From Bacteroidota bacterium (lineage in GTDB: Bacteria > Bacteroidota > Bacteroidia > Bacteroidales > B18-G4): 41,050 nucleotides of DNA. Positions 1 to 35,038 of this stretch are shown here, piece after piece. Within the stretch, counting starts at the first letter, position 1. Every line of letters starts with the position of its first letter. Under the pieces are notes generated by a model, which saw only the letters and a list, made by a program, of their open reading frames with translations, searched no databases and had not been told where the DNA came from. Made by a program: the position numbers and the translations under genes. The stretch covers positions 1 through 41,050 of the forward strand of contig JBDLIJ010000001.1 of NCBI GenBank assembly GCA_039714935.1, written 5' to 3'.

Positions 1-25
1 AGTTTTGAGTTTTGAGTTTTGAGTT
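1..25. repeat. Tandem heptamer array (TTTTGAG)x3, truncated by the window edge
   Basis: Read directly: ag-ttttgag-ttttgag-ttttgag-tt. It has the same NNNTGAG core as the TAYTGAG arrays at 4261, 4732 and 9946, and ends 12 nt before the ATG at 37. Confidence 0.8.
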
Positions 26-480: not shown

Positions 481-1932
481 TCAGTTTTCTATGACTTTTT
501 TATAATGCTCGTACCTTTCAAGGATCTCCACCACAAATGCATATGTTTCTTCACCGCGGGCATAGCCGTATTTCACAACCGAATCGCGATAATAATCAGG
601 GTTAGATTTATTCAGGATGAAAAAGTCAACATTATTTGTCCAGGTATCCGGATCCTTTCCATGTTTTTCTGCCAGGCGACGGGCATCATAGATATGGGCA
701 ATGCCAACATTATATGCTGCCAGCACAAACCTGATCCTTTGCTCAGCATCATCAATTTCTTCGGGGAGCTGGCCATCGAGCCAACGTAAAAATTTAATGC
801 CTGCCTGTATCTGATCAGAAGCAGAAGATGTTGAATCTACACCATAGACTTCAGCAGTTGCAGGCATCAGCTGCATCAATCCAAAAGCACCAACCCATGA
901 TTTTACATCAGGATGAAAACGTGACTCCTGGTAAATCAAAGAAGCTACAAGCCGCCAATCAAGTCCATATGCCAGGCTCAGTTCGCGGATAATATCATCA
1001 TATTGGGATATTTTTCCTCCGCCGATTGAGTGATATTCACTCTGTGCTATATTTACTGAGCGCGGATTATTAAAATATTTATTATAAACATAACGTGATG
1101 CAACACTTTTCTTATAGTTTAGCATCCACTCATTAATGGTGATTCTCAGACTGTCATTACCTGGTTTTACGGCCCAGGCCACATGTTGTGGAAAACTCAA
1201 GGCCGTGCCCACATCAAGGTTAGTATAATACTTCTGGTTTACTTTGGCAATATGTTCATCCGCAACAGTAAACTCAATATCTCCATTAGCCACATCTGTA
1301 ATAAGTTGTTCAACTTCTTTCTCAGTATCCTCATAAATATGGATGGTGTCGCCAATTTCATTTGCCAGGATCTCCAGCCGGTCAACAAATATGGTCCCCT
1401 TCTGAACGTATACACTTTTCCCTGCGAGTTCGAGTGGGTTTCGGATAAGTTGCTCTTCAATTTCATCCCATGTTCGCAACTTTCGCCAATTTTCAGGTTT
1501 CCGTTGCACAAGCACCTGCTTTGTTTGCATCTGAGGTGATGTAAAATCAACCAGCTTTTGCCTGTCGCGGGTAACCGTAAGACCCAAGGCCATCAGGTCA
1601 ACCTCTTCCTCAGCAATTAAATTAAAAGCTTTATGCATATCATTCACAATCACCAACCTGAGTTTAACTCCCAGGTGATCGGCAAACTGTTTCAGCATCT
1701 CAAACTGATAACCCATGGGCTCACCCCTGTATATAAAATAATTGGTTGAATTGTAATCGGTGAGTGCAATGAGTGTATCCCGTGCCAGAACCTTCTCAAG
1801 GCTGAGATCATTTTTAACATTTGGGCCTTCATTAACAATTGCATCAGTCTTTCCTTCATTTCTGTCCAGGCAGGAGGACAAACCAATCATCAAAGCACTG
1901 ATTATGATAACGTTACCTAATATGTTTCTCAT
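481..1932 (-). CDS. mltF: Membrane-bound lytic murein transglycosylase F-like lipoprotein (solute-binding domain + SLT domain)
   Basis: It has a lipoprotein signal 'GLSSC', an N-terminal SBP_bac_3-like half, and a C-terminal SLT half with 'IYQESRF', 'GLMQLMP' and 'AAYNVG'. The ATG at 1932 is preferred over the TTG at 1947. Confidence 0.85.
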   Translation of the reverse strand: MRNILGNVIIISALMIGLSSCLDRNEGKTDAIVNEGPNVKNDLSLEKVLARDTLIALTDYNSTNYFIYRGEPMGYQFEMLKQFADHLGVKLRLVIVNDMHKAFNLIAEEEVDLMALGLTVTRDRQKLVDFTSPQMQTKQVLVQRKPENWRKLRTWDEIEEQLIRNPLELAGKSVYVQKGTIFVDRLEILANEIGDTIHIYEDTEKEVEQLITDVANGDIEFTVADEHIAKVNQKYYTNLDVGTALSFPQHVAWAVKPGNDSLRITINEWMLNYKKSVASRYVYNKYFNNPRSVNIAQSEYHSIGGGKISQYDDIIRELSLAYGLDWRLVASLIYQESRFHPDVKSWVGAFGLMQLMPATAEVYGVDSTSSASDQIQAGIKFLRWLDGQLPEEIDDAEQRIRFVLAAYNVGIAHIYDARRLAEKHGKDPDTWTNNVDFFILNKSNPDYYRDSVVKYGYARGEETYAFVVEILERYEHYKKVIEN

Positions 1933-2040
1933 TTTAGTCAAACACAAATAATCCTAAATTATATTCTAATGTAAGAAAAATGATGCATAAAAGAACAAAA
2001 AAATATCAACGAAGATAAATATAGTTGTCAAAAGGGAGCA

Positions 2041-3153
2041 CTATGCAACTTTCCGATACCTCCATACAGCCAATATATTCAACACTATTGCCAGTATCAG
2101 TAGTGAGAAAAATTGTCTTGATACATCGCTGAATCCTGATCCTTTTAAGAGAACCATCCGCATGACGTCAATAAAGTAAGCGATTGGATTAATCTGATTC
2201 ATCCACTGTGCCCATTCAGGCATGCTCTGGACCGGGGTGAACAAGCCACTCATCAGGATGAAAACGATCATAAAGAAAAACGTCAGGAACATCGATTGTT
2301 GCTGAGTATTTGTGAGTGTTGATATCAACAGCCCTAGCCCCAGTGCAACAAGCAAATATACTCCTGCAACAAAAAAGACCAGACCCAGGCTGCCAAGCAT
2401 CGGAATATCAAACACCACTTTGGCAATAAGCAAACCAAAAGCAAGTTCAAAAAGAGCGATAAACCAGAATGGTATCAGCTTTCCAAGAACAAACTGATAT
2501 TTCCGGATCGGTGTAACGTTAATCTGTTCTATGGTGCCTATTTCCTTTTCTCTTACAATATTCATCGCCGAGAGAAAAGCACTGATGACCGTTACCAATA
2601 ATACGAGTATCCCCGGAACCATGTAGGTAAAATAGTTGAGCTCGGGATTATACCAAAAGGCATGGCTGAGTTTGATGGCTTCAGGACTTTTTTGTAATCC
2701 CAGCTGATCAACAATAACATTGATATTGTAATCATTGATAATTGACAGGGAATAGGCACTCATCAGGCTGGCAGCACTTCCGTTGATGGCATTGGTGGTG
2801 ACCTGAAGCCGGGCTTTTTTATTCTTTGCCATATCCTTTTCAAAGCCTGCAGGAATTTGCAATATCTGATCTGTTTCGTTGTTGATCAGGCTTTCTTCAG
2901 CAATGCTAAATGATTCGGAAAAATCTACAATAGTAAAAAAAGGGGAACCCCTGAATTTTGCAAGCAGCTCGCGTGAAGCCGGGCTTTTGTCCTGATCTAC
3001 AACAAAAAGATTCACATTCTTAATTTCGAAAGTGGCTGTAAAGGACAGCACCAATAGTTGAATGATCGGCACCACAAAGATTATCGGAAGCATGGTTTTG
3101 TTTCTGAAAACCTGGATGAACTCTTTTTGCAATATGAAAATGATGGTTCTCAT
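2041..3153 (-). CDS. ABC-2 type transporter permease (YbhR/YbhS-like)
   Basis: The layout is an N-terminal TM, a large extracytoplasmic loop, then about 5 C-terminal TMs. It lies 3 nt downstream of a paralogous permease gene. Confidence 0.85.
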   Translation of the reverse strand: MRTIIFILQKEFIQVFRNKTMLPIIFVVPIIQLLVLSFTATFEIKNVNLFVVDQDKSPASRELLAKFRGSPFFTIVDFSESFSIAEESLINNETDQILQIPAGFEKDMAKNKKARLQVTTNAINGSAASLMSAYSLSIINDYNINVIVDQLGLQKSPEAIKLSHAFWYNPELNYFTYMVPGILVLLVTVISAFLSAMNIVREKEIGTIEQINVTPIRKYQFVLGKLIPFWFIALFELAFGLLIAKVVFDIPMLGSLGLVFFVAGVYLLVALGLGLLISTLTNTQQQSMFLTFFFMIVFILMSGLFTPVQSMPEWAQWMNQINPIAYFIDVMRMVLLKGSGFSDVSRQFFSLLILAIVLNILAVWRYRKVA

Positions 3154-3156
3154 ATA

Positions 3157-4254
3157 CTATTCCAATCTTATCTTGAAATTTTTCACACTTAAGCCGATAA
3201 ATACTACTGTAATGCCAATAATGATCAATGTTTCCTGCCAGATATGCATCAGCCCAACACCTTTGATCATAATATCTTTTATGATAATGATAAACCACTT
3301 AGTGGGCATGATATTACATAACCATTGAAGTACCACCGGCATATTTTCAATGGGAAAGATAAATCCTGAAAGAAGGATGGTAGGCAACATCAAAGCAAAC
3401 ATTGACATCATCATAGCTGTTTGCTGGTTGTTGGCTACTGTAGAAATCAGGATACCAAGTGCCAGTGCCATAATGATAAAGAGTAAGGTTTCTGCCAGGA
3501 GTAATATCAGGCTTCCCTGCACAGGCATGCCAAAGACGAAGAATGCCAGCAAGAGGATGGTAATGGCATTGACAAAAGACAATACAACATAAGGTATTAC
3601 CTTTCCTATAACTATTTGAATGGGCTTCAAAGGTGATACAAGTAACACTTCCATGGTGCCTAATTCCTTCTCCCTGGCAATTGATATTGAAGTCATCATG
3701 GCAGATATCAGCATAAGCAGAATGGTGATGACACCGGGCACAAACATGAAAACACTTTTCAATTCCGGATTAAATAACATCTTGTAATCGGTACTGATCA
3801 CTACCGGTAATCCTTTATCACCAATTTTTTCTGTCATATAGTTCCTGATAATGCCGCTGGTATAATTCACCAACAGGTTGGCAGTATTGGGGTCAGAAGC
3901 ATCAGCAATAATATGGATTGATGCATTTTGCTCCTTTTCTATCCTTCGGGCAAAGTTGTCACCAAAGATGATAACTTCTTTCACTTTCCCCGCTTTAAAC
4001 GCAGTTTCTATCTGCCGCTCATTCTGCAGGTTCTCGCCGAGGATAAAATATTCTGAAGAGATGATCTTGTTACTCAACTCAAGGCTCATATGATCTTTGG
4101 AGTAATCCAGTATGGCTATTTCAGCATCCTTGATTTCTGTAGAAATGGCGAAGCCAAAGATCAATACCTGCGCGATAGGCATACCAAACAGGATGACCAT
4201 GGTCCGGACATCTCTGAAGATGTGGTAGAATTCTTTTATGATAAAGCCTTTCAT
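3157..4254 (-). CDS. ABC-2 type transporter permease (YbhS/YbhR-like)
   Basis: It has the same ABC-2 layout as the neighbouring permease. The ATG at 4252-4254 is only 6 nt from the heptamer array. Confidence 0.85.
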   Translation of the reverse strand: MKGFIIKEFYHIFRDVRTMVILFGMPIAQVLIFGFAISTEIKDAEIAILDYSKDHMSLELSNKIISSEYFILGENLQNERQIETAFKAGKVKEVIIFGDNFARRIEKEQNASIHIIADASDPNTANLLVNYTSGIIRNYMTEKIGDKGLPVVISTDYKMLFNPELKSVFMFVPGVITILLMLISAMMTSISIAREKELGTMEVLLVSPLKPIQIVIGKVIPYVVLSFVNAITILLLAFFVFGMPVQGSLILLLAETLLFIIMALALGILISTVANNQQTAMMMSMFALMLPTILLSGFIFPIENMPVVLQWLCNIMPTKWFIIIIKDIMIKGVGLMHIWQETLIIIGITVVFIGLSVKNFKIRLE

Positions 4255-4260
4255 TGCAGG

Positions 4261-4323
4261 TGATTAGTATTGAGCACTGAGTATTGAGTACTGAGTATTG
4301 AGTACTGAGTACTGAGTACTGGG
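4261..4323. repeat. Tandem heptamer array, about 9 units of TAYTGAG (+ strand orientation)
   Basis: Read directly: tgattag tattgag cactgag tattgag tactgag tattgag tactgag tactgag tactggg. Confidence 0.95.
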
Positions 4324-4353
4324 ATTCAAGCGCCTCTGGTCAATAATCCCAAA

Positions 4354-4698
4354 TTATAAATTAGATATTTTATATGTCATCTTTTGAATTTCAAAAATCT
4401 CTTTTGATAAATATTTAAAATCATTATTTAGTAAAAACCCATTTCTATTTGCTATGATCAGTTGTGTTTCAAGCTCACAAGCTGACCCATACGCAACACT
4501 CAAGAAATATTTAAACTCTTTTTCTGACCTTCGTCCAGATCCCTCAGCGATATTTGAAGGTATTGAAACAGCAGATCTTCTGATTTGTTGAGTGAGTCCA
4601 AACTTTTCTTCTGTTGGAAACTTTCTAGTTACTTTATATACTTCTATTGACAGATTCATTGCCTTTTGCCAAACTGTAAGTTTTTTATATTGATGCAT
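4354..4698 (-). CDS. Four-helix-bundle protein (23S rRNA intervening-sequence protein / S23p family, related to DGR Avd)
   Basis: The 114 aa product has the family hallmarks 'LxVWQKAMxL', 'VYxxTxxFPxEEKFGLTxQIRRSAVSIPSNIAEG' and 'FLxxAYGSxxELETQL'. Confidence 0.9.
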   Translation of the reverse strand: MHQYKKLTVWQKAMNLSIEVYKVTRKFPTEEKFGLTQQIRRSAVSIPSNIAEGSGRRSEKEFKYFLSVAYGSACELETQLIIANRNGFLLNNDFKYLSKEIFEIQKMTYKISNL

Positions 4699-4731
4699 TT
4701 ATTAATAGGTTAAGTGAAATTAAGATCATAT

Positions 4732-4766
4732 CTCAGTACTCAGTACTCAATACTCAATACTCTCAT
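4732..4766. repeat. Tandem heptamer array, 5 units of CTCARTA (reverse complement of TAYTGAG)
   Basis: Read directly: ctcagta ctcagta ctcaata ctcaata ctctcat. It is the inverted partner of 4261-4323. Confidence 0.95.
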
Positions 4767-4787
4767 CTATTAATTAATACCCAAATT

Positions 4788-5525
4788 TCAATTTTGTCCC
4801 CTGGCAATTTTTATAAACACCTCTTCCATGGAATCAGCTTCAAATTGCTTTTTAAGTTCTTCCGGCTTGTCCAGGGCTTCTATCCTGCCCTCAACCATTA
4901 TTGATACTCTCTGGCAATATTCTGCTTCATCCATATAATGTGTTGTAACAAATACTGTGGTGGCTGTTGCTGCTGCTTCATAGATCATTTCCCAGAATTG
5001 CCTGCGCGTAACCGGATCCACACCCCCGGTTGGCTCATCCAGGAAAATGATCTTCGGATCATGCATGACAGCCACAGAAAAAGCCAGCTTTTGTTTCCAG
5101 CCGAGCGGCAGAGAGCTGATTACCGAATGCGCTTCTTTTTCCAGACCGAGTTTCTTCAGGTAATGGCTGGTCTTTTCACGAATAGCCTTGCCCGACATGC
5201 CATAGATGCCACCATAAAAACGGAAGTTCTCCCTGATGGTCATATCTTCATACAGAGAAAACTTCTGGCTCATATAACCAATATTCTTTTTCACCTTATT
5301 TGATTGGCTGGATACATCAAATCCTGCCACTTCAATACGGCCCTTTGTTGGTAATAAAAGTCCACAGAGGATCTTCATCGCAGTAGTTTTTCCGGCACCA
5401 TTGGCACCCAGGAAACCAAATACTTCTCCTCTTTTTACAAAAAAGCTGAGGTCGTCGTTAGCAATAAAGCTTCCAAACTTTTTAGTAAGATGATCCACTT
5501 TAATGATATGGTCTTCCATGAACAT
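4788..5525 (-). CDS. ABC transporter ATP-binding protein (second half of a split YbhF-like ATPase)
   Basis: Walker A is 'GANGAGKTT' and Walker B is 'IIFLDEPTGGVD', with an H-loop 'TTHYMDEA'. The ATG directly abuts the stop of the upstream ATPase gene. Confidence 0.9.
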   Translation of the reverse strand: MFMEDHIIKVDHLTKKFGSFIANDDLSFFVKRGEVFGFLGANGAGKTTAMKILCGLLLPTKGRIEVAGFDVSSQSNKVKKNIGYMSQKFSLYEDMTIRENFRFYGGIYGMSGKAIREKTSHYLKKLGLEKEAHSVISSLPLGWKQKLAFSVAVMHDPKIIFLDEPTGGVDPVTRRQFWEMIYEAAATATTVFVTTHYMDEAEYCQRVSIMVEGRIEALDKPEELKKQFEADSMEEVFIKIARGQN

Positions 5526-6443
5526 TTATTCTTGTGTCATCAACTCCATGAAACAATCTTCAATCCCGGGAGGGATGCTTTCAATTTCAATATCCTTATG
5601 CCCCAGGCCTGCAAGTTGATTGTGAAGTACATCTGCATTAAATATTTCTCCTGTAGATGAATAATGCACAGTTGCACCAAAGCGGTAAGCAGCATGACAG
5701 TCATGCAATGATAAGAGATCATTTACCAATCGAAACATGTTGTTGGTTTTAACCGAGGCGAGTAATTTTGTGTGTGACTCAATAATACCTTCCGGGGTGT
5801 CAATGCTCATGATCTCTCCATCCTGCATCAGGGCCACCCTGTCGCAGAGGATAGCTTCATCCATGTATGGTGTTGAAACAATGATGGTGATCCCCCATTC
5901 CTTCAACCGCTTTAACATTTCCCAAAACTCTCTTCTTGAAACAGCATCCACCCCTGTAGTGGGCTCATCAAGGAAGAGAATATCCGGTTTATGGATCAGG
6001 GCACATGACAGGGCAAGTTTTTGCTTCATCCCTCCACTCAAACGGCCGGCAAGGCGTGTTTTGAAAGGTTCTATATGCTTATAGATATCCTCTATAAGAT
6101 AATAGTTCTCTGCTATTGTGGTTTTAAAGCTGCTTGCAAAAAATTTCAGATTTTCTTCTACTGACAAATCCTGGTACAGAGAAAATCTTCCCGGCATATA
6201 GCCAACGATCTTTCTGATCTCCTTATATTCTTTTACTACATCCAGGCCTTCTACCTTGACTTTCCCTTCATCAGGCAATAATAATGTAACCAGTATCCTG
6301 AAAAGAGTGGTCTTCCCCGCCCCGTCAGGGCCAATACACCCAAAGATCTCTCCTTTATCTACCGTAAAGGAGATATCTTTAAGTGCCCTGACCTTATCAT
6401 AGGATTTAGATAAGTTTTCTATATAAACGGATGGAGATTTCAC
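5526..6443 (-). CDS. ABC transporter ATP-binding protein (first half of a split YbhF-like ATPase, with C-terminal extension)
   Basis: Walker A is 'GPDGAGKTT', the signature is 'LSGGMKQKLAL', Walker B is 'ILFLDEPTTGVD', and the H-loop is 'STPYMDEA'. Confidence 0.9.
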   Translation of the reverse strand: MKSPSVYIENLSKSYDKVRALKDISFTVDKGEIFGCIGPDGAGKTTLFRILVTLLLPDEGKVKVEGLDVVKEYKEIRKIVGYMPGRFSLYQDLSVEENLKFFASSFKTTIAENYYLIEDIYKHIEPFKTRLAGRLSGGMKQKLALSCALIHKPDILFLDEPTTGVDAVSRREFWEMLKRLKEWGITIIVSTPYMDEAILCDRVALMQDGEIMSIDTPEGIIESHTKLLASVKTNNMFRLVNDLLSLHDCHAAYRFGATVHYSSTGEIFNADVLHNQLAGLGHKDIEIESIPPGIEDCFMELMTQE

Positions 6444-6455
6444 TTTTAAATATTA

Positions 6456-6920
6456 TTATTCTTTTACTCTGGTCCAATAGGTTGTGCGTCCTATCAATGA
6501 GATCCCAATATATCCTCTGATCCTCAGCAGGTCATATTCTTCCATGATAATATAACAGCTGTATGTTTTTCCACTTTTAGGATCATAAATATCACCATCA
6601 TCCCACTCGTTGTCTTCATCCCATACAAAGTCGGTAAGGAGTTGGATCCCAAGCGAGGGGCGGGTTTGAAGAGCAGGGTCCGGGTTATGCTTATCAAGTT
6701 TTGGTTTTCCGGTCTCGTCATCAATGGGGTTTTTCAACCAGATAATTTTTCCAAAATACAAATCTCCATCCTGATAGACTTCTATGTGAGCATCTTTATC
6801 TTCATTTAACCACACACCAAGAATATCACCTGCTTTGTAATCTTGCGCAACGAGATTGTTTGTTGTAAAAATCCCTGCGGCAATAAACATTAATACAATA
6901 CTGAGCTTTTTCATAATCAT
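6456..6920 (-). CDS. DUF2147-family secreted protein
   Basis: It has a signal peptide plus 'GVWLNEDKDAHIEVY', 'GDIYDPKSGKTYSC' and 'LRIRGY...GRTTYWTRV', which are typical of DUF2147. Confidence 0.7.
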   Translation of the reverse strand: MIMKKLSIVLMFIAAGIFTTNNLVAQDYKAGDILGVWLNEDKDAHIEVYQDGDLYFGKIIWLKNPIDDETGKPKLDKHNPDPALQTRPSLGIQLLTDFVWDEDNEWDDGDIYDPKSGKTYSCYIIMEEYDLLRIRGYIGISLIGRTTYWTRVKE

Positions 6921-6952: not shown

Positions 6953-7831
6953 TTAAAAATTCACTTCGCCCGGCATCCCGATTTTGATCGTCCCATCATT
7001 TTTCACAAAGATCTTCACGGCATATACCAGGTTTACTCTTTCTTCTTTTGTTTGAATCGTTTTGGGTGTAAATTCTGCTGTTGAGGATACCCAGCTAATG
7101 GTCCCTTCCAGGCTTCTGTTTTTTGTTTTGCTCTCATCAATCTGCACTTCAACCTTCTGGCCTATTTTTATGTGTGGAAGCTGATCTCCGCTAACATACA
7201 CCTTAAGCTTCATTTTACTCATATCAGCAAGCTTAAAAAGAGGTTTGCCTATTGCTGCTACTTCACCAGGTTCAGCATATTTTGTCAGCACTGTTCCTGA
7301 TACTGAAGGTCTGATATGACACTTTGATAATGCTTCTATCAGCTGGTCTGTCTGGGCATCCAGTGTGCCTATTTCAGCAATGATCTTTTGCTTTTGTGAT
7401 TTTGCAGCCTTCATCTGTGCTTCCAGAAGATCAATGGCACCGTTCATATCATCAAGCTGTTTCCTGGTGGCAGCTCCATCAGCATATAATTTCTCAAGTC
7501 TGTCCTTATCTTTCAGCAGGTTCTCTTTCTGCTGCAATTGTACTTCAATCTGGGCATCAATGGTAATTAATCCGGTTCTTACAGCATCTTTGGCCCTGGC
7601 CAATTGCTTCTTTCTAAGAACCAGGTCTACAGTATCTATCAGCCCTATTTCATCACCCTTATGAAGTAGGTCACCTTCATTTATCTCCAGTCGCAGAATT
7701 TCACCCTGCGCCATTGCAGAGATCACTACTTCTTTAGCCTCAAAGTTTCCATATGCATCGGCTTTATCATGATTGGTGCTGCATGCAAATAAGCCAAGCG
7801 AAATCATGGTGATAATAATCAGTTTTCTCAT
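6953..7831 (-). CDS. HlyD-family periplasmic adaptor (membrane fusion) lipoprotein
   Basis: It has a lipoprotein signal 'GLFAC', a long central coiled coil and a C-terminal beta-barrel region, and sits next to the TolC and ABC genes. Confidence 0.85.
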   Translation of the reverse strand: MRKLIIITMISLGLFACSTNHDKADAYGNFEAKEVVISAMAQGEILRLEINEGDLLHKGDEIGLIDTVDLVLRKKQLARAKDAVRTGLITIDAQIEVQLQQKENLLKDKDRLEKLYADGAATRKQLDDMNGAIDLLEAQMKAAKSQKQKIIAEIGTLDAQTDQLIEALSKCHIRPSVSGTVLTKYAEPGEVAAIGKPLFKLADMSKMKLKVYVSGDQLPHIKIGQKVEVQIDESKTKNRSLEGTISWVSSTAEFTPKTIQTKEERVNLVYAVKIFVKNDGTIKIGMPGEVNF

Positions 7832-7840
7832 TATATATAT

Positions 7841-9154
7841 TTATAAGATTCCTAATGTTGTCAGGTAGTCTACCCTTGCCTGTGCCAGCCTGACCTTATG
7901 CAGCTCAAGGTTAAGCCTTGACTGCGCTTCCTCGTTAAGCCTGCTCACATAATCGGAGGATGTGATCACTCCGTTATTCAGTTGTGAAGAGGCAGTTTTA
8001 GAAATATTTTCCCTTAATTCAATAACTTCCATGTCTTTAACGATCAAGGTCTCATATTTGCTTATGCTGGCGATATGCTGTTTCAGTGCAACATTAAGTT
8101 TGATGTCAAAAGTTTCTTTTTCCTTGTCGATCATATCCTGCCTGAGTCCCAGGATCTGTTTCTCTTTTTTATTCTGGTTCCAATTCCAGATCTGCCATTG
8201 CAGGCGGGCTCCAACGATATAGAAGGGAGAGAAATTATCTTCAAGCATGTTGAGCCCTGGATTGCCATATCCCAGCTGACCAAAGCCTGAAAGTTTTGGA
8301 TTCCAAGTGCTTGTTATAAGCTCTTTACTATCTTCCAGCATGGATTTTTGCATATCATAAATTTGTAATTCCGGCCGCAAAGGGTCATGCGAAAAGGATA
8401 TAAAATCATTCTCTGGCAAAGCCAGCATAACCTCTTCCGGAATATCTTCCGACATCAGGTCCCCCAGGATCATTGTAAAAGCCTGCTTTTGAATACTGGT
8501 TTCATCAAGTTGCTGTTCAATCCGGAGAATCTCCGCTTTTAAAACATCCCTGTCAGTTGACAAAGCAACACCATATTCAACAGCTGCATTAATTTCTTTC
8601 AATTTTTGATTCATCTCATCCATGAGTATGGATAATAACTTCTCATTTTCCTGCATCAGGATAATACTGAAAAAAACTGAATTGATACTTTCTTTTAGTT
8701 GATGTAAAACTACTTCCACTTTCTGCTCCTCAATCTCATAGGCTGCCAGCTCCATTTTTTTCTGCTTCCCTGTAATGCCCCCATCATAGATCACCTGGTT
8801 GATGTCCATGGTAATTCTGTACTGGTCTTTTGGCGGTACAGGAGTATCAAATGGAGCAGGGCTGACTTCGATATCAATTGGAGGAGGGATATAGAATGGA
8901 GGAACAACAACATCTACTTTTGTAACGTCAGACTGATACGACACCTGACCACTGATCTGTACCCTGGGCAGATAATTGGCATTAAGCTTTTTCTGTTCTA
9001 TCTCACTGGCGGCCTTAAGTAAGCTTGTGTGATCGCTCAGCGGATAATTGACCAACGCCATTTCATGGCAATATTCCAGCGTGAGTATATCAGCTACCTG
9101 GCCATAAACGGTGCCAAGCAAAAGCGACCCTATGATCAACATTATTTGTTTCAT
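7841..9154 (-). CDS. TolC-family outer membrane efflux protein
   Basis: It has a signal peptide and two internally repeated halves with long helical segments. It sits between the TetR and HlyD genes. Confidence 0.85.
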   Translation of the reverse strand: MKQIMLIIGSLLLGTVYGQVADILTLEYCHEMALVNYPLSDHTSLLKAASEIEQKKLNANYLPRVQISGQVSYQSDVTKVDVVVPPFYIPPPIDIEVSPAPFDTPVPPKDQYRITMDINQVIYDGGITGKQKKMELAAYEIEEQKVEVVLHQLKESINSVFFSIILMQENEKLLSILMDEMNQKLKEINAAVEYGVALSTDRDVLKAEILRIEQQLDETSIQKQAFTMILGDLMSEDIPEEVMLALPENDFISFSHDPLRPELQIYDMQKSMLEDSKELITSTWNPKLSGFGQLGYGNPGLNMLEDNFSPFYIVGARLQWQIWNWNQNKKEKQILGLRQDMIDKEKETFDIKLNVALKQHIASISKYETLIVKDMEVIELRENISKTASSQLNNGVITSSDYVSRLNEEAQSRLNLELHKVRLAQARVDYLTTLGIL

Positions 9155-9759
9155 CCTTTTTTAATTGCATTTAAAATGAACTCCGGGACTTCCTTTTTCC
9201 TTTCCACCAGAAATTGATGATATGCATCTTCATCATTACTGAAAAGCATCCTCTGTATTAAAGGTCTGGCTGCAAAAGGGAATACACATAAACCAACCAG
9301 GTTCACCAGAAACTGTCGTGGGTCTTTAAGTGTTACATTTTCCTTCTCCAGTGTTCTTGTGATATTTTCGATCATGATCTCCGGGTTGATCCCGGCCTCC
9401 CTGATAAGTTCTGCGAGATGTTGCGGGTTTTTACTCAACTCCTGCATGACAAAGATGGGAATGAGCGGGTTTTCTATAAATACATCAATATACCGGTCTG
9501 TAAAAGAGTATACCTTTTCTTCCAGGCTCATGTCAGAAAGAAATATCACACCAACATGAGGAATGAACTGGATGAAGACTTTTTCAAATACCTTGCCGAA
9601 CAAACGCTCCTTACTCCTGTAATAATAATGCAACAACGACTTGTTAATCCCAGCGGCATCAGCGATCATCTGCATGCTAGTGCCGTCATAAGAATTTTGC
9701 ATAAAAACCTCACGCGCCACCTTAAGTATATGCTCTTCTGTATTGAGCTTATCATCCAT
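9151..9759 (-). CDS. TetR/AcrR-family transcriptional repressor
   Basis: The N-terminal HTH is 'TSMQMIADAAGINKSLLHYYYRSKERLF'. It is the first gene of the efflux operon and overlaps tolC by 4 nt. Confidence 0.9.
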   Translation of the reverse strand: MDDKLNTEEHILKVAREVFMQNSYDGTSMQMIADAAGINKSLLHYYYRSKERLFGKVFEKVFIQFIPHVGVIFLSDMSLEEKVYSFTDRYIDVFIENPLIPIFVMQELSKNPQHLAELIREAGINPEIMIENITRTLEKENVTLKDPRQFLVNLVGLCVFPFAARPLIQRMLFSNDEDAYHQFLVERKKEVPEFILNAIKKG

Positions 9760-9774
9760 AAATATTGACTATTT

Positions 9775-9809
9775 AGTTTAACTAATTGAATTAACCATTT
9801 GGTTAAACT
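9775..9809. promoter_or_regulatory. Candidate TetR operator: three TTAAC-containing half-sites, two direct and one inverted
   Basis: Positions 9775-9782 (agtttaac) are the exact reverse complement of 9802-9809 (gttaaact). A nested perfect palindrome ttaacca-tt-tggttaa lies at 9791-9806. The site lies between the predicted -7 box and the TetR start codon. Confidence 0.5.
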
Positions 9810-9816
9810 GATTAGA

Positions 9817-9824: not shown

Positions 9825-9945
9825 TTTCATAAAAACTCGTTTGTCAAGGAGTTTCTAAAATAATTATTGTGCCATACCTGCATGTTACTGATTATCTTGA
9901 CAGTATGTGTGCAGGGACAAAAAGGGTGGGGCTACGAATAGCAAG

Positions 9946-9997
9946 TGTTGAGTATTGAGTACTGAGTATTGAGTATTGAGTATTGAGTATTGAGTAG
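9946..9997. repeat. Solo tandem heptamer array, about 7 units of TAYTGAG
   Basis: Read directly: tgttgag tattgag tactgag tattgag x4 tag. It shares a run of more than 20 nt (tattgagtactgagtattgagta) with the array at 4282-4304. No inverted partner is visible nearby. Confidence 0.95.
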
Positions 9998-10061: not shown

Positions 10062-10967
10062 ATGCGTTGGCTTCCGATAAATATCAGCATCATTTTTATG
10101 ATCCTCTCAGGAATAGTCTTTGGCCAGATGAGGATTGATTGCGATGGTCTGGAGATGGAAGCCGGAAGTGATTTCATCAGCAAGGGCAAGTATGCATCAT
10201 CTGTCAGGACATGGCATTCAGATTCATTATCAGATGCTTCAATTGTGTTGTGTCCGGCAGGGCTTCACCGATCCTCACAGGACGATATAAAAAAGCGATA
10301 TTCATTTGACTGGACGGTTAAATACAATAACATCTACCTGAAGACAAAAGAAGGGCTGATCATTGAGGGCCTGAATGAGCATGGATTTTCAGCCTCATTA
10401 ATGTTTCTCAATAATAGTCAATTAGCAGGTAAAGAAAAGGAACACATTCCGATTGCCGCATCTCTGGTCATTAATTTTTTTATCGATCACTTTAAGTGTG
10501 TCGATACGGCCTTACTGGCAGTATGGGATGTCAGGATCTATGACGATCTGGGAATGACATGTGGCTGGCCATTTCGAATTGTTTTGCATGACTCTGCAGG
10601 ATCGACTGCTTACATAGAACATATTGATGGACACAAAAGGGTTTATACTCCGGGCTCACCCGCCTTGATTGTTGATGGACCTGATTACGCCCGCTTAATC
10701 ACCATAAAATATCTGCAGGACTCCATTCCTGGCAATAAGGCTGAAATGCGCTATTTACAAATTCAAAAAGAAATAGATTCGGATAGTTTTGATGGAATGA
10801 TATTCTATTACATTAAGAACCATCCTGAGATTCCATTTTTAGAAATCACCAGAGGGCATTCTCGGAATGCACAACTATTAATTTTGAAACGAACTGATGC
10901 GATCTGCTTTGAGATTCAAAAACTTGAATTCAAAACAGGAGTTGAAACAATTCTCAAAGTCTTTTAA
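10062..10967 (+). CDS. Secreted Ntn-hydrolase-like protein, choloylglycine hydrolase / linear amide C-N hydrolase family (divergent)
   Basis: By-eye motif matches to CBAH-family proteins are 'C27-DGLEME' (compare the CTGLALE N-terminal nucleophile), 'GLNEHGF' (compare GMNEKGL) and 'IVLHDSAGSTAYIEH' (compare LHWMISDITGKSIVVE). It has an N-terminal signal-like segment. Confidence 0.55.
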   Translation: MRWLPINISIIFMILSGIVFGQMRIDCDGLEMEAGSDFISKGKYASSVRTWHSDSLSDASIVLCPAGLHRSSQDDIKKRYSFDWTVKYNNIYLKTKEGLIIEGLNEHGFSASLMFLNNSQLAGKEKEHIPIAASLVINFFIDHFKCVDTALLAVWDVRIYDDLGMTCGWPFRIVLHDSAGSTAYIEHIDGHKRVYTPGSPALIVDGPDYARLITIKYLQDSIPGNKAEMRYLQIQKEIDSDSFDGMIFYYIKNHPEIPFLEITRGHSRNAQLLILKRTDAICFEIQKLEFKTGVETILKVF

Positions 10968-34941: not shown

Positions 34942-35003
34942 ATGCTGATGCAAAATTACAAATTAAGATTACAAATCACTACTGTCCGGGTAAACAGAAT
35001 TTT

Positions 35004-35038
35004 ACCTAAAACCCAACACCCAACACCTAACACCATTA
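35004..35038. repeat. Tandem heptamer array, about 5 units of ACCYAAC (a second heptamer family)
   Basis: Read directly: acctaaa acccaac acccaac acctaac accatta. It lies in the divergent lipA/lysS intergenic region, just upstream of the lysS -7 box. Confidence 0.85.

What the first reader, a model, noticed from the sequence alone, without database searches (positions are those of the whole stretch)
4255..4787. Four-helix-bundle (rRNA-IVS / Avd-family) gene bracketed by inverted heptamer arrays, inserted inside an ABC efflux operon
The other gene junctions in the 9759-to-2041 minus-strand operon range from a 4 nt overlap to 32 nt, but the ATPase-to-permease junction is 533 bp. That gap holds one visibly AT-rich 114 aa ORF with the hallmarks of the 23S-rRNA intervening-sequence protein family, which also includes the DGR accessory protein Avd. 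The ORF is flanked by about 9 units of TAYTGAG on one side and 5 units of the reverse complement CTCARTA on the other. Positions 4289-4316 can pair with 4732-4759 at 27 of 28 positions, enclosing a loop of about 415 nt that contains the whole ORF. This is the architecture of rRNA intervening sequences (a long stem cut by RNase III with an ORF in the loop), but here it sits in a polycistronic mRNA. My inference is that this is a self-contained, possibly mobile IVS-like cassette. Its stem could cause the efflux mRNA to be processed into an ATPase half and a permease half. The element carries no recognisable transposase, integrase or RT, so how it spreads is unexplained.
Basis: partly seen in the sequence, partly recalled or inferred. 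Interest (0 to 1): 0.75.

Follow-up and report, generated by a model that had tools for sequence, protein, structure and literature searches.

The report
IVS-like gene cassette inside an operon

Summary
Window 4255-4787 contains a 114-aa ORF (4354-4698, minus strand) that matches PF05635 and TIGR02436 far above their cut-offs. It is bracketed by inverted heptamer arrays: 8.0 units at 4266-4321 and 4.4 units at 4732-4762. In RNA these arrays fold into a 31-bp helix, 45 pairs with extensions, with pair probability 0.99.

It is an insertion. One close relative has an empty site where the ATPase stop overlaps the permease start (ATGA). Three others carry an orthologous cassette under purifying selection.

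The design is general:
- In 96-98 related genes (98 scored for flanking repeats, 96 for orientation), 57 have strong flanking inverted repeats, against 5 of 253 control genes.
- Where a tandem period is detectable it is 7.
- The heptamer sequence differs between loci, yet each pair of arms stays complementary.
- 90 of 96 genes lie in sense orientation between co-directional genes.
- The arms abut the upstream stop and the downstream start.
- Xanthomonas has the same layout between accB and accC.

Heptamer-array hairpins also occur without the ORF.

RNase III processing is inferred only from homologous 23S rRNA intervening sequences. The mode of spread and the protein's function remain unknown. 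I found no paper linking this protein family to inverted heptamer arrays at operon junctions. I rate it a new variant of a known kind.

The parts
4255..4787 (-). Whole insert between the ABC ATPase stop and the ABC-2 permease start.
   Evidence: The gap is 533 nt, against 32 nt or less at the other junctions. The block is absent from the orthologous junction of L085, where stop and start overlap as ATGA.
4354..4698 (-). Four-helix-bundle protein gene (114 aa, predicted pI 9.6) of the 23S_rRNA_IVP / TIGR02436 family.
   Evidence: PF05635 E = 1.4e-41 and TIGR02436 E = 5.8e-40. PDB 2GSC matches at E = 3e-24. An identical protein, P0001, is annotated as a four helix bundle protein. dN/dS is about 0.05 in the one orthologue pair for which dS could be computed.
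4732..4762 (-). 5' arm in the sense of the operon: 4.4 heptamer units (GAGTATT GAGTATT GAGTACT GAGTACT GAG).
   Evidence: Tandem Repeats Finder, inverted repeat I2 and a 31-bp helix in the minimum-energy fold.
4266..4321 (-). 3' arm in the sense of the operon: 8.0 heptamer units (CAGTACT/CAATACT type). It ends 11 nt before the permease ATG.
   Evidence: Tandem Repeats Finder and inverted repeats I1-I7. Positions 4286-4316 pair with the 5' arm.
4776..4792 (-). Outer 5' strand of the stem base. It contains the ATPase stop codon UGA (4790-4788).
   Evidence: The minimum-energy fold has helices 4792-4788/4273-4269 (5 bp) and 4784-4776/4285-4277 (9 bp).
4269..4285 (-). Outer 3' strand of the stem base, 15-31 nt upstream of the permease start codon (4254-4252).
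4788..5525 (-). Upstream host gene: ABC transporter ATPase (245 aa).
   Evidence: PF00005 E = 1.6e-30.
3157..4254 (-). Downstream host gene: ABC-2 permease (365 aa).
   Evidence: PF12698 E = 1.2e-48.

Best explanation
This is an IVS-type stem-loop gene cassette sitting in a protein-coding operon.

**Shown**
- A four-helix-bundle gene (PF05635/TIGR02436), bracketed by inverted arrays of heptamers, was inserted into what used to be an overlapping stop/start junction (ATGA) between the ABC ATPase and permease genes.
- Cassettes of this kind recur widely. They lie almost always in sense orientation between co-directional genes.
- Each locus has its own heptamer sequence, but its two arms stay complementary.
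- The arms start right after the upstream stop codon and end right before the downstream start codon.

**Inferred**
- The cassette is transcribed as part of the operon mRNA.
- The two arms pair into a duplex of about 31-45 bp. This loops the insert out and brings the ATPase stop and the permease start to the base of the stem.
- The duplex is cut by RNase III, as in homologous 23S rRNA intervening sequences. Cutting would release a separate mRNA for the four-helix-bundle protein and split the efflux mRNA into an ATPase half and a permease half.
- A ribosome terminating at the ATPase stop, which lies inside the outermost helix, would have to melt the stem base. That would expose the region just upstream of the permease start.
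- The protein is probably a basic, RNA-binding pentamer that acts on its own stem or transcript. Its exact role is unknown.
- Cassettes are gained and lost at operon junctions by an unknown route.
For: **Family and anatomy:**

**Insertion**
- L085 has permease 88% and ATPase 84% identical to the window, and the two genes overlap by 4 nt.
- Most of the more distant relatives have overlaps of 1-10 nt or gaps under 35 nt.

**Orthologous cassettes**
- The closest homologues (79-81% identity) sit at the same junction in L081-L084.
- Their arrays have changed sequence but remain inverted. In L081 the 5' units run GTA, GAT, GTA, GAC and the 3' arm mirrors that order.
- Purifying selection: dN 0.11-0.16 with dS saturated.

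**Family-wide inverted repeats**
- Flank inverted-repeat score is median 32, against 16 for 253 control genes. 57 of 98 genes score at least 30, against 5 of 253 controls.
- A gene's own flanks pair better than flanks swapped between loci (median 32 vs 16). 47 of 96 exceed the 95th percentile of the swapped pairs.
- 72 of 96 folds have at least 15 long-range closing pairs.

**Period**
- Where a tandem period is detectable it is 7 in 35 of 36 flanks.
- 92 period-7 arrays were found, against 4 or fewer for any other period.

**Orientation and geometry**
- 90 of 96 genes are co-oriented with both neighbours; 2 are antisense.
- The 5' arm starts a median of 5 nt after the upstream stop. The 3' arm ends a median of 9 nt before the downstream ATG.
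- The 5' arm is purine-rich in 50 of 54 cassettes, with unit consensus D-A-G-W-N-N-T.
- ORF-less heptamer hairpins keep the same polarity relative to the flanking genes in 13 of 13 detections.

**Cross-phylum case**
- In Xanthomonas the XCC0516-like gene lies between accB and accC. It is flanked by inverted GGGAATC arrays that abut the accB stop and the accC ATG, and the fold closes.

**Precedent**
- The Coxiella IVS has an S23p ORF in a 28-bp stem cut by RNase III in vitro, with tandem heptamers upstream of the ORF and cleavage at the first repeat (PMC4990558).
- The related Avd pentamer binds a structured RNA element (bioRxiv 10.1101/2023.10.23.563531).
- 2GSC and 2RLD each have 5 chains.
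Against: - There are no transcript data, so neither stem formation in vivo nor RNase III cleavage is shown.
- Mismatches in the arms show no excess of G.U-compatible over A.C-type changes (37 vs 32). Complementarity could therefore be kept by a DNA-level process rather than by selection on RNA.
- The arms abutting the stop and start codons is also what one expects trivially when a compact element lands in a zero-length spacer.
- Heptamer arrays are common away from four-helix-bundle genes: 31 of 33 arrays in the permease-selected loci. The arrays and the gene may therefore be separable.
- No general target-site duplication was found. No second copy exists in the window. The route of spread is unknown.
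- The D-A-G rule does not hold in Xanthomonas, where the unit is GGGAATC.
Confidence: 0.55

Rival explanations
1. The cassette is a domesticated host module rather than a selfish insert. The stem-loop and its protein are kept because they set the relative expression or mRNA stability of the genes on either side, through intercistronic processing or translational coupling. The patchy distribution then reflects lineage-specific regulation.
For: - The cassette has stayed at the same junction while synonymous sites saturated, and it is under purifying selection.
- 51 of 100 related genes lie next to a thiolase gene, and in 11 loci from several orders the thiolase is flanked by a four-helix-bundle gene on both sides. 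Within families the upstream copies group with upstream copies and the downstream with downstream.
- The Xanthomonas protein in the accB/accC junction was recorded on 241-293 index blocks; at all five places examined it lay at this junction.
- The arms sit exactly at the stop and start codons.
Against: - An empty site exists in a relative that is just as close.
- The same junction elsewhere holds unrelated fillers: other four-helix-bundle lineages, ORF-less hairpins, REP-like hairpins and a membrane ORF.
- The host operons are functionally unrelated (efflux, fatty-acid oxidation, acetyl-CoA carboxylase).
- Upstream and downstream copies do not form separate groups at phylum level, and in one locus (L015) the two copies are 83% identical, which suggests turnover.
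Confidence: 0.2
2. The element works at the DNA level. The inverted heptamer arrays are terminal inverted repeats or hairpin/cruciform sites handled by a recombinase or transposase encoded elsewhere, as for MITEs. ORF-less heptamer hairpins would be the miniature forms. The RNA stem would then be a by-product.
For: - ORF-less inverted heptamer hairpins occur at the same kinds of sites.
- There is no G.U versus A.C asymmetry in arm mismatches.
- An AATGAA direct duplication flanks the insert in L083/L084.
- Presence/absence occurs among close relatives.
- Inverted heptamer pairs number 70-75 per Xanthomonas genome (PMC4692102).
Against: - Direct repeats in the outer flanks are no longer than in shuffled controls.
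- Arm length, unit number and unit sequence vary freely, unlike recognised transposon ends.
- Orientation is 90 sense to 2 antisense, and the ORF-less hairpins also have a fixed polarity relative to transcription. A purely DNA-level palindromic element would not show this unless strong selection acted after insertion.
- No transposase is present in the window.
Confidence: 0.15
3. The co-occurrence is coincidental. Heptamer arrays are slippage-prone simple repeats that build up in any spacer, and the four-helix-bundle gene merely creates spacers. The apparent stem is then an accident of using one repeat unit on both strands.
For: - Period-7 arrays are the dominant tandem repeat throughout these genomes and mostly lie away from four-helix-bundle genes in unselected loci.
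- Heptanucleotide repeats are reported as the most abundant long simple repeats in many bacteria (cited in PMC4679880).
- The window has solitary arrays at 9944-9996 and 1-25.
Against: - Slippage makes direct arrays, not matched inverted ones.
- Flank complementarity is locus-specific and far above controls.
- Heterogeneous unit order is mirrored between the arms in L081.
- Polarity is constant.
- The same design is seen in two phyla and in the Coxiella rRNA IVS.
Confidence: 0.04
4. The ORF is the accessory protein (Avd) of a diversity-generating retroelement, or a remnant of one.
For: Weak similarity only: PF22296 bAvd at 20.7 bits, NF033474 at 24.5 bits, and PHROG 'Avd protein of DGR' at E = 2e-8.
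Against: - Both Avd models score below their cut-offs (40 and 80 bits).
- No reverse transcriptase domain was found among the ORFs of at least 140 aa that were scanned in the 41-kb window; template/variable repeats were not specifically searched for.
- The neighbours on both sides are ABC transporter genes.
Confidence: 0.02

Closest known systems
23S rRNA intervening sequences carrying an S23p/PF05635 ORF (Coxiella burnetii, Leptospira, Brucella, Xanthomonas; PMC4990558)
   Same: - Same protein family.
- The ORF lies in the loop of a roughly 28-31 bp stem formed by terminal inverted repeats, in sense to the host transcript.
- The element is about 0.4-0.5 kb.
- Coxiella also has tandem heptamers (GACAGAT) upstream of the ORF, in variable number between strains.
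   Different: - The host transcript here is a polycistronic mRNA, at the junction of two protein genes, not helix 45 of 23S rRNA.
- Both arms here are tandem heptamer arrays.
- The protein here is under purifying selection, whereas the Coxiella ORF is reported to be decaying.
- RNase III excision is demonstrated there and only inferred here.
Inverted pairs of GGGAATC heptamer arrays in Xanthomonas intergenic regions (Rehm et al. 2015, PMC4692102)
   Same: - Period-7 arrays, usually about 4 units long.
- Mostly located between co-oriented genes.
- 70-75 convergent pairs per genome that could form stem-loops.
- I found that one such pair encloses the XCC0516-like four-helix-bundle gene between accB and accC.
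   Different: - That paper treats the repeats as G-quadruplex-forming sequences and does not mention the four-helix-bundle gene.
- The window's heptamers are AT-rich and have no G-runs.
Intergenic heptamer direct repeats (TAACTGA) of Beggiatoaceae, Cyanobacteria and some Bacteroidetes (MacGregor 2015, PMC4679880)
   Same: Tandem heptamers in intergenic spacers, often just upstream of start codons. A post-transcriptional role was proposed for them.
   Different: Those are mostly direct arrays of one fixed heptamer. No inverted partner and no enclosed gene were described.
Transcribed miniature inverted-repeat elements that form RNase III-cleaved hairpins in mRNAs (Correia/NEMIS elements of Neisseria; from my own knowledge, not checked here)
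   Same: Inverted-repeat insertions within transcription units whose RNA hairpins are processed by RNase III, which changes the stability of the flanking mRNA.
   Different: - Correia elements carry no gene.
- They have defined terminal repeats and a TA target duplication.
- They are not built of tandem heptamers.
DGR accessory protein Avd (bAvd, PDB 4DWL)
   Same: Distant homologue. It is a basic pentameric barrel of four-helix bundles and binds a structured RNA element.
   Different: It works with a dedicated reverse transcriptase and template repeat, and none is present here. The Avd models score below their cut-offs.

Membership tests
Four-helix-bundle protein / 23S_rRNA_IVP (PF05635, TIGR02436) | Whole-protein score above the curated cut-offs of the family models. 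| tested here: met
   PF05635 141.4 bits (cut-off 33.8), TIGR02436 135.9 bits (cut-off 24) and NF008911 139.8 bits (cut-off 137).
Four-helix-bundle protein / 23S_rRNA_IVP (PF05635, TIGR02436) | About 110-130 aa, with the conserved SIPSNIAEG-GR and GS-xELETQ motifs. | tested here: met
   The ORF is 114 aa. Invariant columns S45, S48, N49, I50, E52, G53, G55, R56, E75, L76 and Q79 hold in a 30-sequence alignment.
Four-helix-bundle protein / 23S_rRNA_IVP (PF05635, TIGR02436) | Four-helix-bundle fold assembling into a homopentamer. | not tested
   Only sequence homology to 2GSC (E = 3e-24) and 2RLD, each deposited with 5 chains.
23S rRNA intervening sequence (IVS) element | Located inside a 23S (or 16S) rRNA gene. 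| tested here: not met
   The cassette lies between an ABC ATPase gene and a permease gene. No Rfam family, including rRNA, matches anywhere in the window. None of the related genes in L001-L080 lies in a non-coding context.
23S rRNA intervening sequence (IVS) element | Bordered by complementary sequences that form a long stem enclosing the element. | tested here: met
   A 31-bp helix, 45 pairs with extensions, pair probability 0.99 and z = -5.2.
23S rRNA intervening sequence (IVS) element | S23p-family ORF in the loop, in sense to the host transcript. | tested here: met
   [quoted passage not shown] 90 of 96 relatives are co-oriented with both neighbours.
23S rRNA intervening sequence (IVS) element | Excised from the precursor RNA by RNase III. 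| not testable with these tools
   Needs transcript-end mapping or an in vitro RNase III assay. Precedent exists only for rRNA IVSs.
Diversity-generating retroelement (Avd component) | Scores as Avd (NF033474 / PF22296) above cut-off. | tested here: not met
   24.5 bits against 80, and 20.7 bits against 40.
Diversity-generating retroelement (Avd component) | Adjacent reverse transcriptase and template/variable repeat pair. | tested here: not met
   No reverse transcriptase domain in the window ORFs of at least 140 aa that were scanned. Template/variable repeats were not searched for.
MITE / transposon with terminal inverted repeats | Target-site duplication at the ends. | tested here: inconclusive
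   AATGAA is duplicated at both ends in L083/L084 but is degenerate in the window and L081. Across 55 cassettes the outer-flank direct repeats are no longer than in shuffles.
MITE / transposon with terminal inverted repeats | Several near-identical copies at different loci of one genome. | not testable with these tools
   Only one 41-kb contig of the source genome is available, and it holds a single copy.
Inverted heptamer-array pairs (as described in Xanthomonas) | Two arrays of period 7 in convergent orientation, located between co-oriented genes. | tested here: met
   Period 7 dominates in related loci.
Inverted heptamer-array pairs (as described in Xanthomonas) | G-tracts able to form G-quadruplexes. 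| tested here: not met
   The units are GAGTAYT and contain no G-runs.

The most novel reading that the evidence does not exclude
Four-helix-bundle cassettes and ORF-less inverted heptamer hairpins together form one widespread, cross-phylum class of 'operon intervening sequences'. In this reading:
- The elements insert at stop/start junctions.
- Their periodic-heptamer stem loops them out of the mRNA, so the flanking cistrons stay coupled or are separated by RNase III.
- They depend on the pentameric four-helix-bundle protein, which recognises the 7-nt periodic arms (about five units per arm for five subunits). The protein would control stem formation or mediate gain and loss.
- The ORF-less hairpins are the non-autonomous forms.

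This would give a function to a very large protein family that has had none since the rRNA IVS ORFs were found.
Probability: 0.2. Interest if true: 0.85.

Novelty: new variant of a known kind. Interest (0 to 1): 0.68.

Why it matters
PF05635/TIGR02436 is a very large family: about 8000 candidates were scored in each of two searches here. No function has been assigned to it since its members were found inside rRNA intervening sequences.

This locus and its relatives show three things:
- The rRNA case is one instance of a broader design: gene in the loop, inverted heptamer arms, sense orientation, arms at the stop and start codons. The design also occupies junctions of ordinary operons for efflux, fatty-acid oxidation and acetyl-CoA carboxylase.
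- The design ties together three scattered observations in the literature: heptamers in the Coxiella IVS, 'G-quadruplex' inverted heptamers in Xanthomonas, and intergenic heptamers in Bacteroidetes.
- It yields direct tests in culturable organisms: RNase III dependence, protein-heptamer binding and translational coupling across the stem.

If the stems are processed, many operons in Bacteroidota are split post-transcriptionally at these sites. That matters for reading transcriptomes and for operon engineering.

Tried and rejected
- **Exact look-up of the window protein** found no record, although an identical cluster representative exists (P0001).
- **Rfam.** No family matched in the window, nor at relaxed threshold in 4200-4850.
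- **Defence and phage libraries.** PADLOC gave no match and PHROGs only a weak Avd match. A defence-system reading was dropped.
- **RNA versus DNA selection.** I compared G.U-compatible with A.C-type arm mismatches and got 37 vs 32, which is uninformative.
- **General target-site duplication.** Not different from shuffles.
- **Loss or gain in L085.**
  - Neighbour-joining on three concatenated proteins nests the empty site inside the filled clade: 82% bootstrap for L081+L083+L085, and 1% for monophyly of the filled sites.
  - Counts of shared derived sites are tiny and conflicting, 4:3:3:1.
  - I therefore leave precise loss versus gain unresolved.
- **Site-specific monophyly of cassettes at ABC junctions.** The window protein is nearer to thiolase-adjacent genes of Balneola (61-63%) than to other permease-adjacent ones (51-54%). 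The differences are small.
- **D-A-G periodicity as a universal protein-binding code** (resembling HutP/TRAP sites, from memory). It holds in Bacteroidota but not in Xanthomonas (GGGAATC), so I kept it only as a lead.
- **Own promoter or intrinsic terminator inside the cassette.** The sigma-70-type scan gave only near-background hits (31 against 22.9 expected in shuffles), including two promoter-like matches at the 3' end of the ORF, and no terminator-like site. The scan does not model Bacteroidota promoters.
- **Literature.** Searches for TIGR02436, PF05635, S23p and heptamer terms found no paper linking the protein family with inverted heptamer arrays.
Full report
**1. What is in the sequence**

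The minus-strand operon runs from 9759 to 2041. Its genes, in order, are:
- TetR regulator (9151-9759)
- outer-membrane efflux protein (7841-9154)
- HlyD-type adaptor (6953-7831)
- DUF2147 protein (6456-6920)
- two ABC ATPases (5526-6443 and 4788-5525)
- two ABC-2 permeases (3157-4254 and 2041-3153)

All junctions are a 4-nt overlap or gaps of 0-32 nt, except ATPase|permease, which is 533 nt.

That gap holds one ORF, 4354-4698(-), of 114 aa.
- It scores 141.4 bits on PF05635 (cut-off 33.8), 135.9 bits on TIGR02436 (cut-off 24) and 139.8 bits on NF008911 (cut-off 137).
- The DGR Avd models are below threshold: NF033474 at 24.5 bits against 80, and PF22296 at 20.7 bits against 40.
- Its nearest solved relative is XCC0516 of Xanthomonas (2GSC, E = 3e-24). 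That entry and 2RLD each contain five chains.
- The region is AT-rich, GC 0.28-0.35 against about 0.42.

The arrays and stem are as follows.
- Tandem Repeats Finder gives 8.0 heptamer units at 4266-4321 and 4.4 units of the reverse complement at 4732-4762.
- The arms 4286-4316 and 4732-4762 are 31 nt long and 97% complementary.
- The pattern occurs 18 times in the window, against 0.15 expected by chance.
- As RNA in the sense of the operon, 4240-4800 folds to -141.3 kcal/mol (z = -5.2) with the long stem closing the whole ORF.
- In detail, the 31-bp helix 4762-4732/4316-4286 is extended by 9 bp (4784-4776/4285-4277) and 5 bp (4792-4788/4273-4269). Mean pair probability is 0.99.
- The outermost helix contains the ATPase stop codon. 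The last paired base lies 15 nt before the permease AUG.

**2. It is an insertion, and an old one in this lineage**

The window is a 41,050-bp contig of a Bacteroidota MAG.

The two closest homologues of the ORF (81% and 79% identity) lie at the same junction of syntenic operons in other assemblies (L081/L082 and L083/L084).

A scan of metagenome contigs with the permease gave 80 related loci.
- The closest, L085 (permease 88% and ATPase 84% identical), has no insert. The ATPase stop and the permease start overlap as ATGA.
- Most of the more distant relatives have overlaps of 1-10 nt or gaps under 35 nt.
- The alignment places the insert between ...GGGGGACA and AATGAAAGG.
- L083/L084 carry AATGAA at both ends. 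The window and L081 have degenerate versions.

Between the window, L081 and L083 the ORF has dN 0.11-0.16 while dS is saturated. The flanking genes behave in the same way. The protein is therefore under purifying selection, and the cassette has stayed put for a long time.

The flanking arrays in L081 and L083 use a different mix of heptamers (GAGTATT, GAGATAT, GAGACGT). The 3' arm still mirrors the unit order of the 5' arm.

Whether L085 lost the cassette precisely or branched before the gain is unresolved.
- Neighbour-joining nests it among the filled sites: 82% bootstrap, and 1% for monophyly of the filled sites.
- The shared-derived-site counts are tiny and conflicting.

**3. The same junction elsewhere**

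In other relatives the ATPase|permease spacer holds a variety of fillers:
- different four-helix-bundle genes with different inverted heptamers (L158, GTGAGTA/TACTCGC; L123)
- a distant 125-aa member flanked by inverted octamers (L091)
- inverted heptamer hairpins without any ORF (L093; L162, z = -7.7)
- a 240-nt direct heptamer array (L142)
- other REP-like hairpins
- a roughly 150-aa membrane ORF

The junction is thus a recurrent landing or accumulation site.

**4. The design is general**

A scan of 185,579 species genomes with a 30-sequence profile found 591 confirmed relatives. The best 80 loci were kept. With the other loci this gave 102 four-helix-bundle genes.

*Flanking inverted repeats*
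- The 160-nt upstream flank aligned to the reverse complement of the downstream flank scores a median of 32, against 16 for 253 control genes from the same loci.
- 57 of 98 genes score at least 30, against 5 of 253 controls.
- Own-flank pairs beat cross-locus pairs (median 32 vs 16), and 47 of 96 exceed the cross-locus 95th percentile.
- 72 of 96 minimum-energy folds have at least 15 pairs between the two flanks.

*Period*
- Where a tandem period is detectable it is 7 in 35 of 36 flanks.
- In these loci there are 92 period-7 arrays, against 4 or fewer for any other period from 5 to 11.

*Unit sequence and polarity*
- The heptamer differs from locus to locus (GAGATGT, GAGTATT, AAGTACC, TAGTCCC, AAGTCGT and others), but the two arms of a locus match.
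- In the sense strand the 5' arm is purine-rich in 50 of 54 cassettes.
- Its unit consensus is D-A-G-W-N-N-T, with A at 85% and G at 91%.

*Orientation and geometry*
- 90 of 96 genes are co-oriented with both neighbours, and only 2 are antisense to both.
- The 5' arm begins a median of 5 nt after the upstream stop codon.
- The 3' arm ends a median of 9 nt before the downstream ATG.
- None of the genes in L001-L080 lies in a non-coding, rRNA-like context.

*Host operons*
- About half (51 of 100) lie next to a thiolase gene, and 11 lie next to ABC-2 permease genes.

**5. A second phylum**

Homologues of XCC0516 in Xanthomonas lie between accB and accC, in sense orientation.
- Directly after the accB stop come GGGAATC GGGAGTG GAGAATC GGGAATC.
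- Directly before the accC ATG come CATTCCC CATTCCC GACTCCC TATTCCC.
- The predicted fold closes the ORF with these arms (z = -4.0).

These are the heptamers that Rehm et al. described as G-quadruplex-forming repeats, with 70-75 convergent pairs per genome. They made no mention of this gene (PMC4692102).

In the Coxiella 23S rRNA IVS, the S23p ORF sits in a 28-bp stem that RNase III cuts in vitro. Two or three tandem heptamers (GACAGAT) precede the ORF, and the 5' cut falls at the first repeat (PMC4990558).

The gene-plus-heptamer-stem design therefore spans Bacteroidota, Balneolaceae, Xanthomonas and the classical rRNA IVS.

**6. Arrays without the gene**

Period-7 arrays are also common away from four-helix-bundle genes. 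In the permease-selected loci 31 of 33 arrays are elsewhere.

ORF-less inverted heptamer hairpins occur at other operon junctions. In all 13 detections, about 9-10 independent hairpins, the A-G-type arm is the 5' arm in the direction of the flanking genes.

The window itself has a solitary (GAGTATT)x7.6 array at 9944-9996 and a truncated array at 1-25.

The arrays are therefore a broader phenomenon, and the gene occupies a subset of them.

**7. How it most likely works**

*Shown*
- family membership
- insertion into an ATGA junction
- conserved, locus-specific complementarity of periodic arms
- sense orientation
- arms placed at the stop and start codons
- purifying selection on the protein

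*Inferred*
- The cassette is read through as part of the operon mRNA.
- The arms pair. The duplex loops the insert out and is a substrate for RNase III, as in the homologous rRNA elements.
- A ribosome terminating at the ATPase stop must open the base of the stem, which lies just upstream of the permease start. Some coupling of the two cistrons could then survive the insertion.
- The protein is basic (pI 9.6; family median 8.6).
- It is related to pentameric XCC0516 and to Avd, whose pentamer binds a structured RNA. An RNA-binding role on its own transcript is therefore plausible.

*Against an RNA-only view*
- Arm mismatches show no excess of G.U-compatible changes (37 vs 32).
- The arm positions follow trivially from insertion into a zero-length spacer.

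*In favour of a transcript-level constraint*
- The 90:2 orientation bias.
- The fixed polarity of the ORF-less hairpins.

How cassettes are gained or lost is unknown.
- No transposase, integrase or reverse transcriptase domain was found among the ORFs of at least 140 aa that were scanned in the window.
- No general target duplication was found.

**8. Comparison with what is known, and novelty**

The locus is a full member of the PF05635/TIGR02436 protein family. It works like, but is not, a 23S rRNA IVS, because the defining location is not met. It is not a DGR Avd.

The accessible literature contains the separate pieces. I found no paper that links the protein family with inverted heptamer arrays or with operon junctions. 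Subscription-only papers and database comments could not be searched.

I classify it as a new variant of a known kind and score interest at 0.68. The anatomy is solid and general, and it opens direct tests of the function of a very large orphan family. The processing step, the protein's role and the mode of spread remain unproven.

Noticed in passing
window 9944-9996: A solitary array of 7.6 units of GAGTATT, the same heptamer as in the cassette. It lies in the divergent spacer between the TetR gene (9151-9759, minus strand) and ORF 10062-10967 (plus strand). No inverted partner and no enclosed ORF were found.
   Followed up: partly
window 1-25: (AGTTTTG)x3.6. The contig begins inside a heptamer array, downstream of the SLT/SBP_bac_3 gene (481-1947, minus strand). 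The assembly probably broke at the repeat.
   Followed up: no
window 34953-35034: Short heptamer runs (AAATTAC x3.6 and ACCCAAC x3.4) in the divergent spacer between a lipoyl synthase gene (minus strand) and a class II aminoacyl-tRNA synthetase gene (plus strand).
   Followed up: no
window 9764-9813: A 26-nt unit repeated 1.9 times (ATTAACCATTTAGTTAAACTAATTGA), immediately upstream of the TetR start codon. It may be the operator of the efflux operon.
   Followed up: no
L005, L006, L011, L014, L015, L026, L032, L063, L072, L078, L079 (about 1300-5300 in each): - A thiolase (acetyl-CoA acetyltransferase) gene is flanked on both sides by four-helix-bundle genes, in genomes from Balneolaceae, Flavobacteriia, Sphingobacteriia and Cytophagia.
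- 51 of 100 related four-helix-bundle genes lie next to a thiolase gene.
- Within families, upstream copies group with upstream copies. In L015 the two copies are 83% identical.
   Followed up: partly
L165-L169, 2424-2875: In Xanthomonas the XCC0516-like four-helix-bundle gene sits between accB and accC. It is flanked by inverted GGGAATC-type heptamer arrays that touch the accB stop and the accC ATG. This links the published 'G-quadruplex' inverted repeats to this gene family.
   Followed up: yes
L162 1365-1590 and 2328-2488; L093 2306-2501; L054 2762-2998 and 3349-3512; L033; L048; L022; L005; L061: Inverted heptamer-array hairpins with no ORF in the loop, at operon junctions. In every case the A-G-type arm is 5' in the direction of the flanking genes. 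In L054 two such hairpins flank a four-helix-bundle gene.
   Followed up: partly
L091 2011-2498: A distant 125-aa member of the family at the same ABC ATPase|permease junction. It is flanked by inverted arrays with a period of 8 rather than 7.
   Followed up: no
L101, L104, L116, L120-L123 (ATPase|permease junction): A conserved membrane ORF of about 150 aa (MxxxEKxKPGxxxRxLLLIAGCAWSIAGG...) occupies the same junction in several relatives. In L123 it is followed by a four-helix-bundle cassette.
   Followed up: no
L096, L103, L112, L119, L127, L132, L159, L164 (ATPase|permease junction): Other GC-rich, REP-like hairpin repeats (for example GTCATTGCGAACG...CAATCTC and GTCATCCTGAGCTTGTCGAAGGAT) fill the same junction in more distant relatives.
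   Followed up: no
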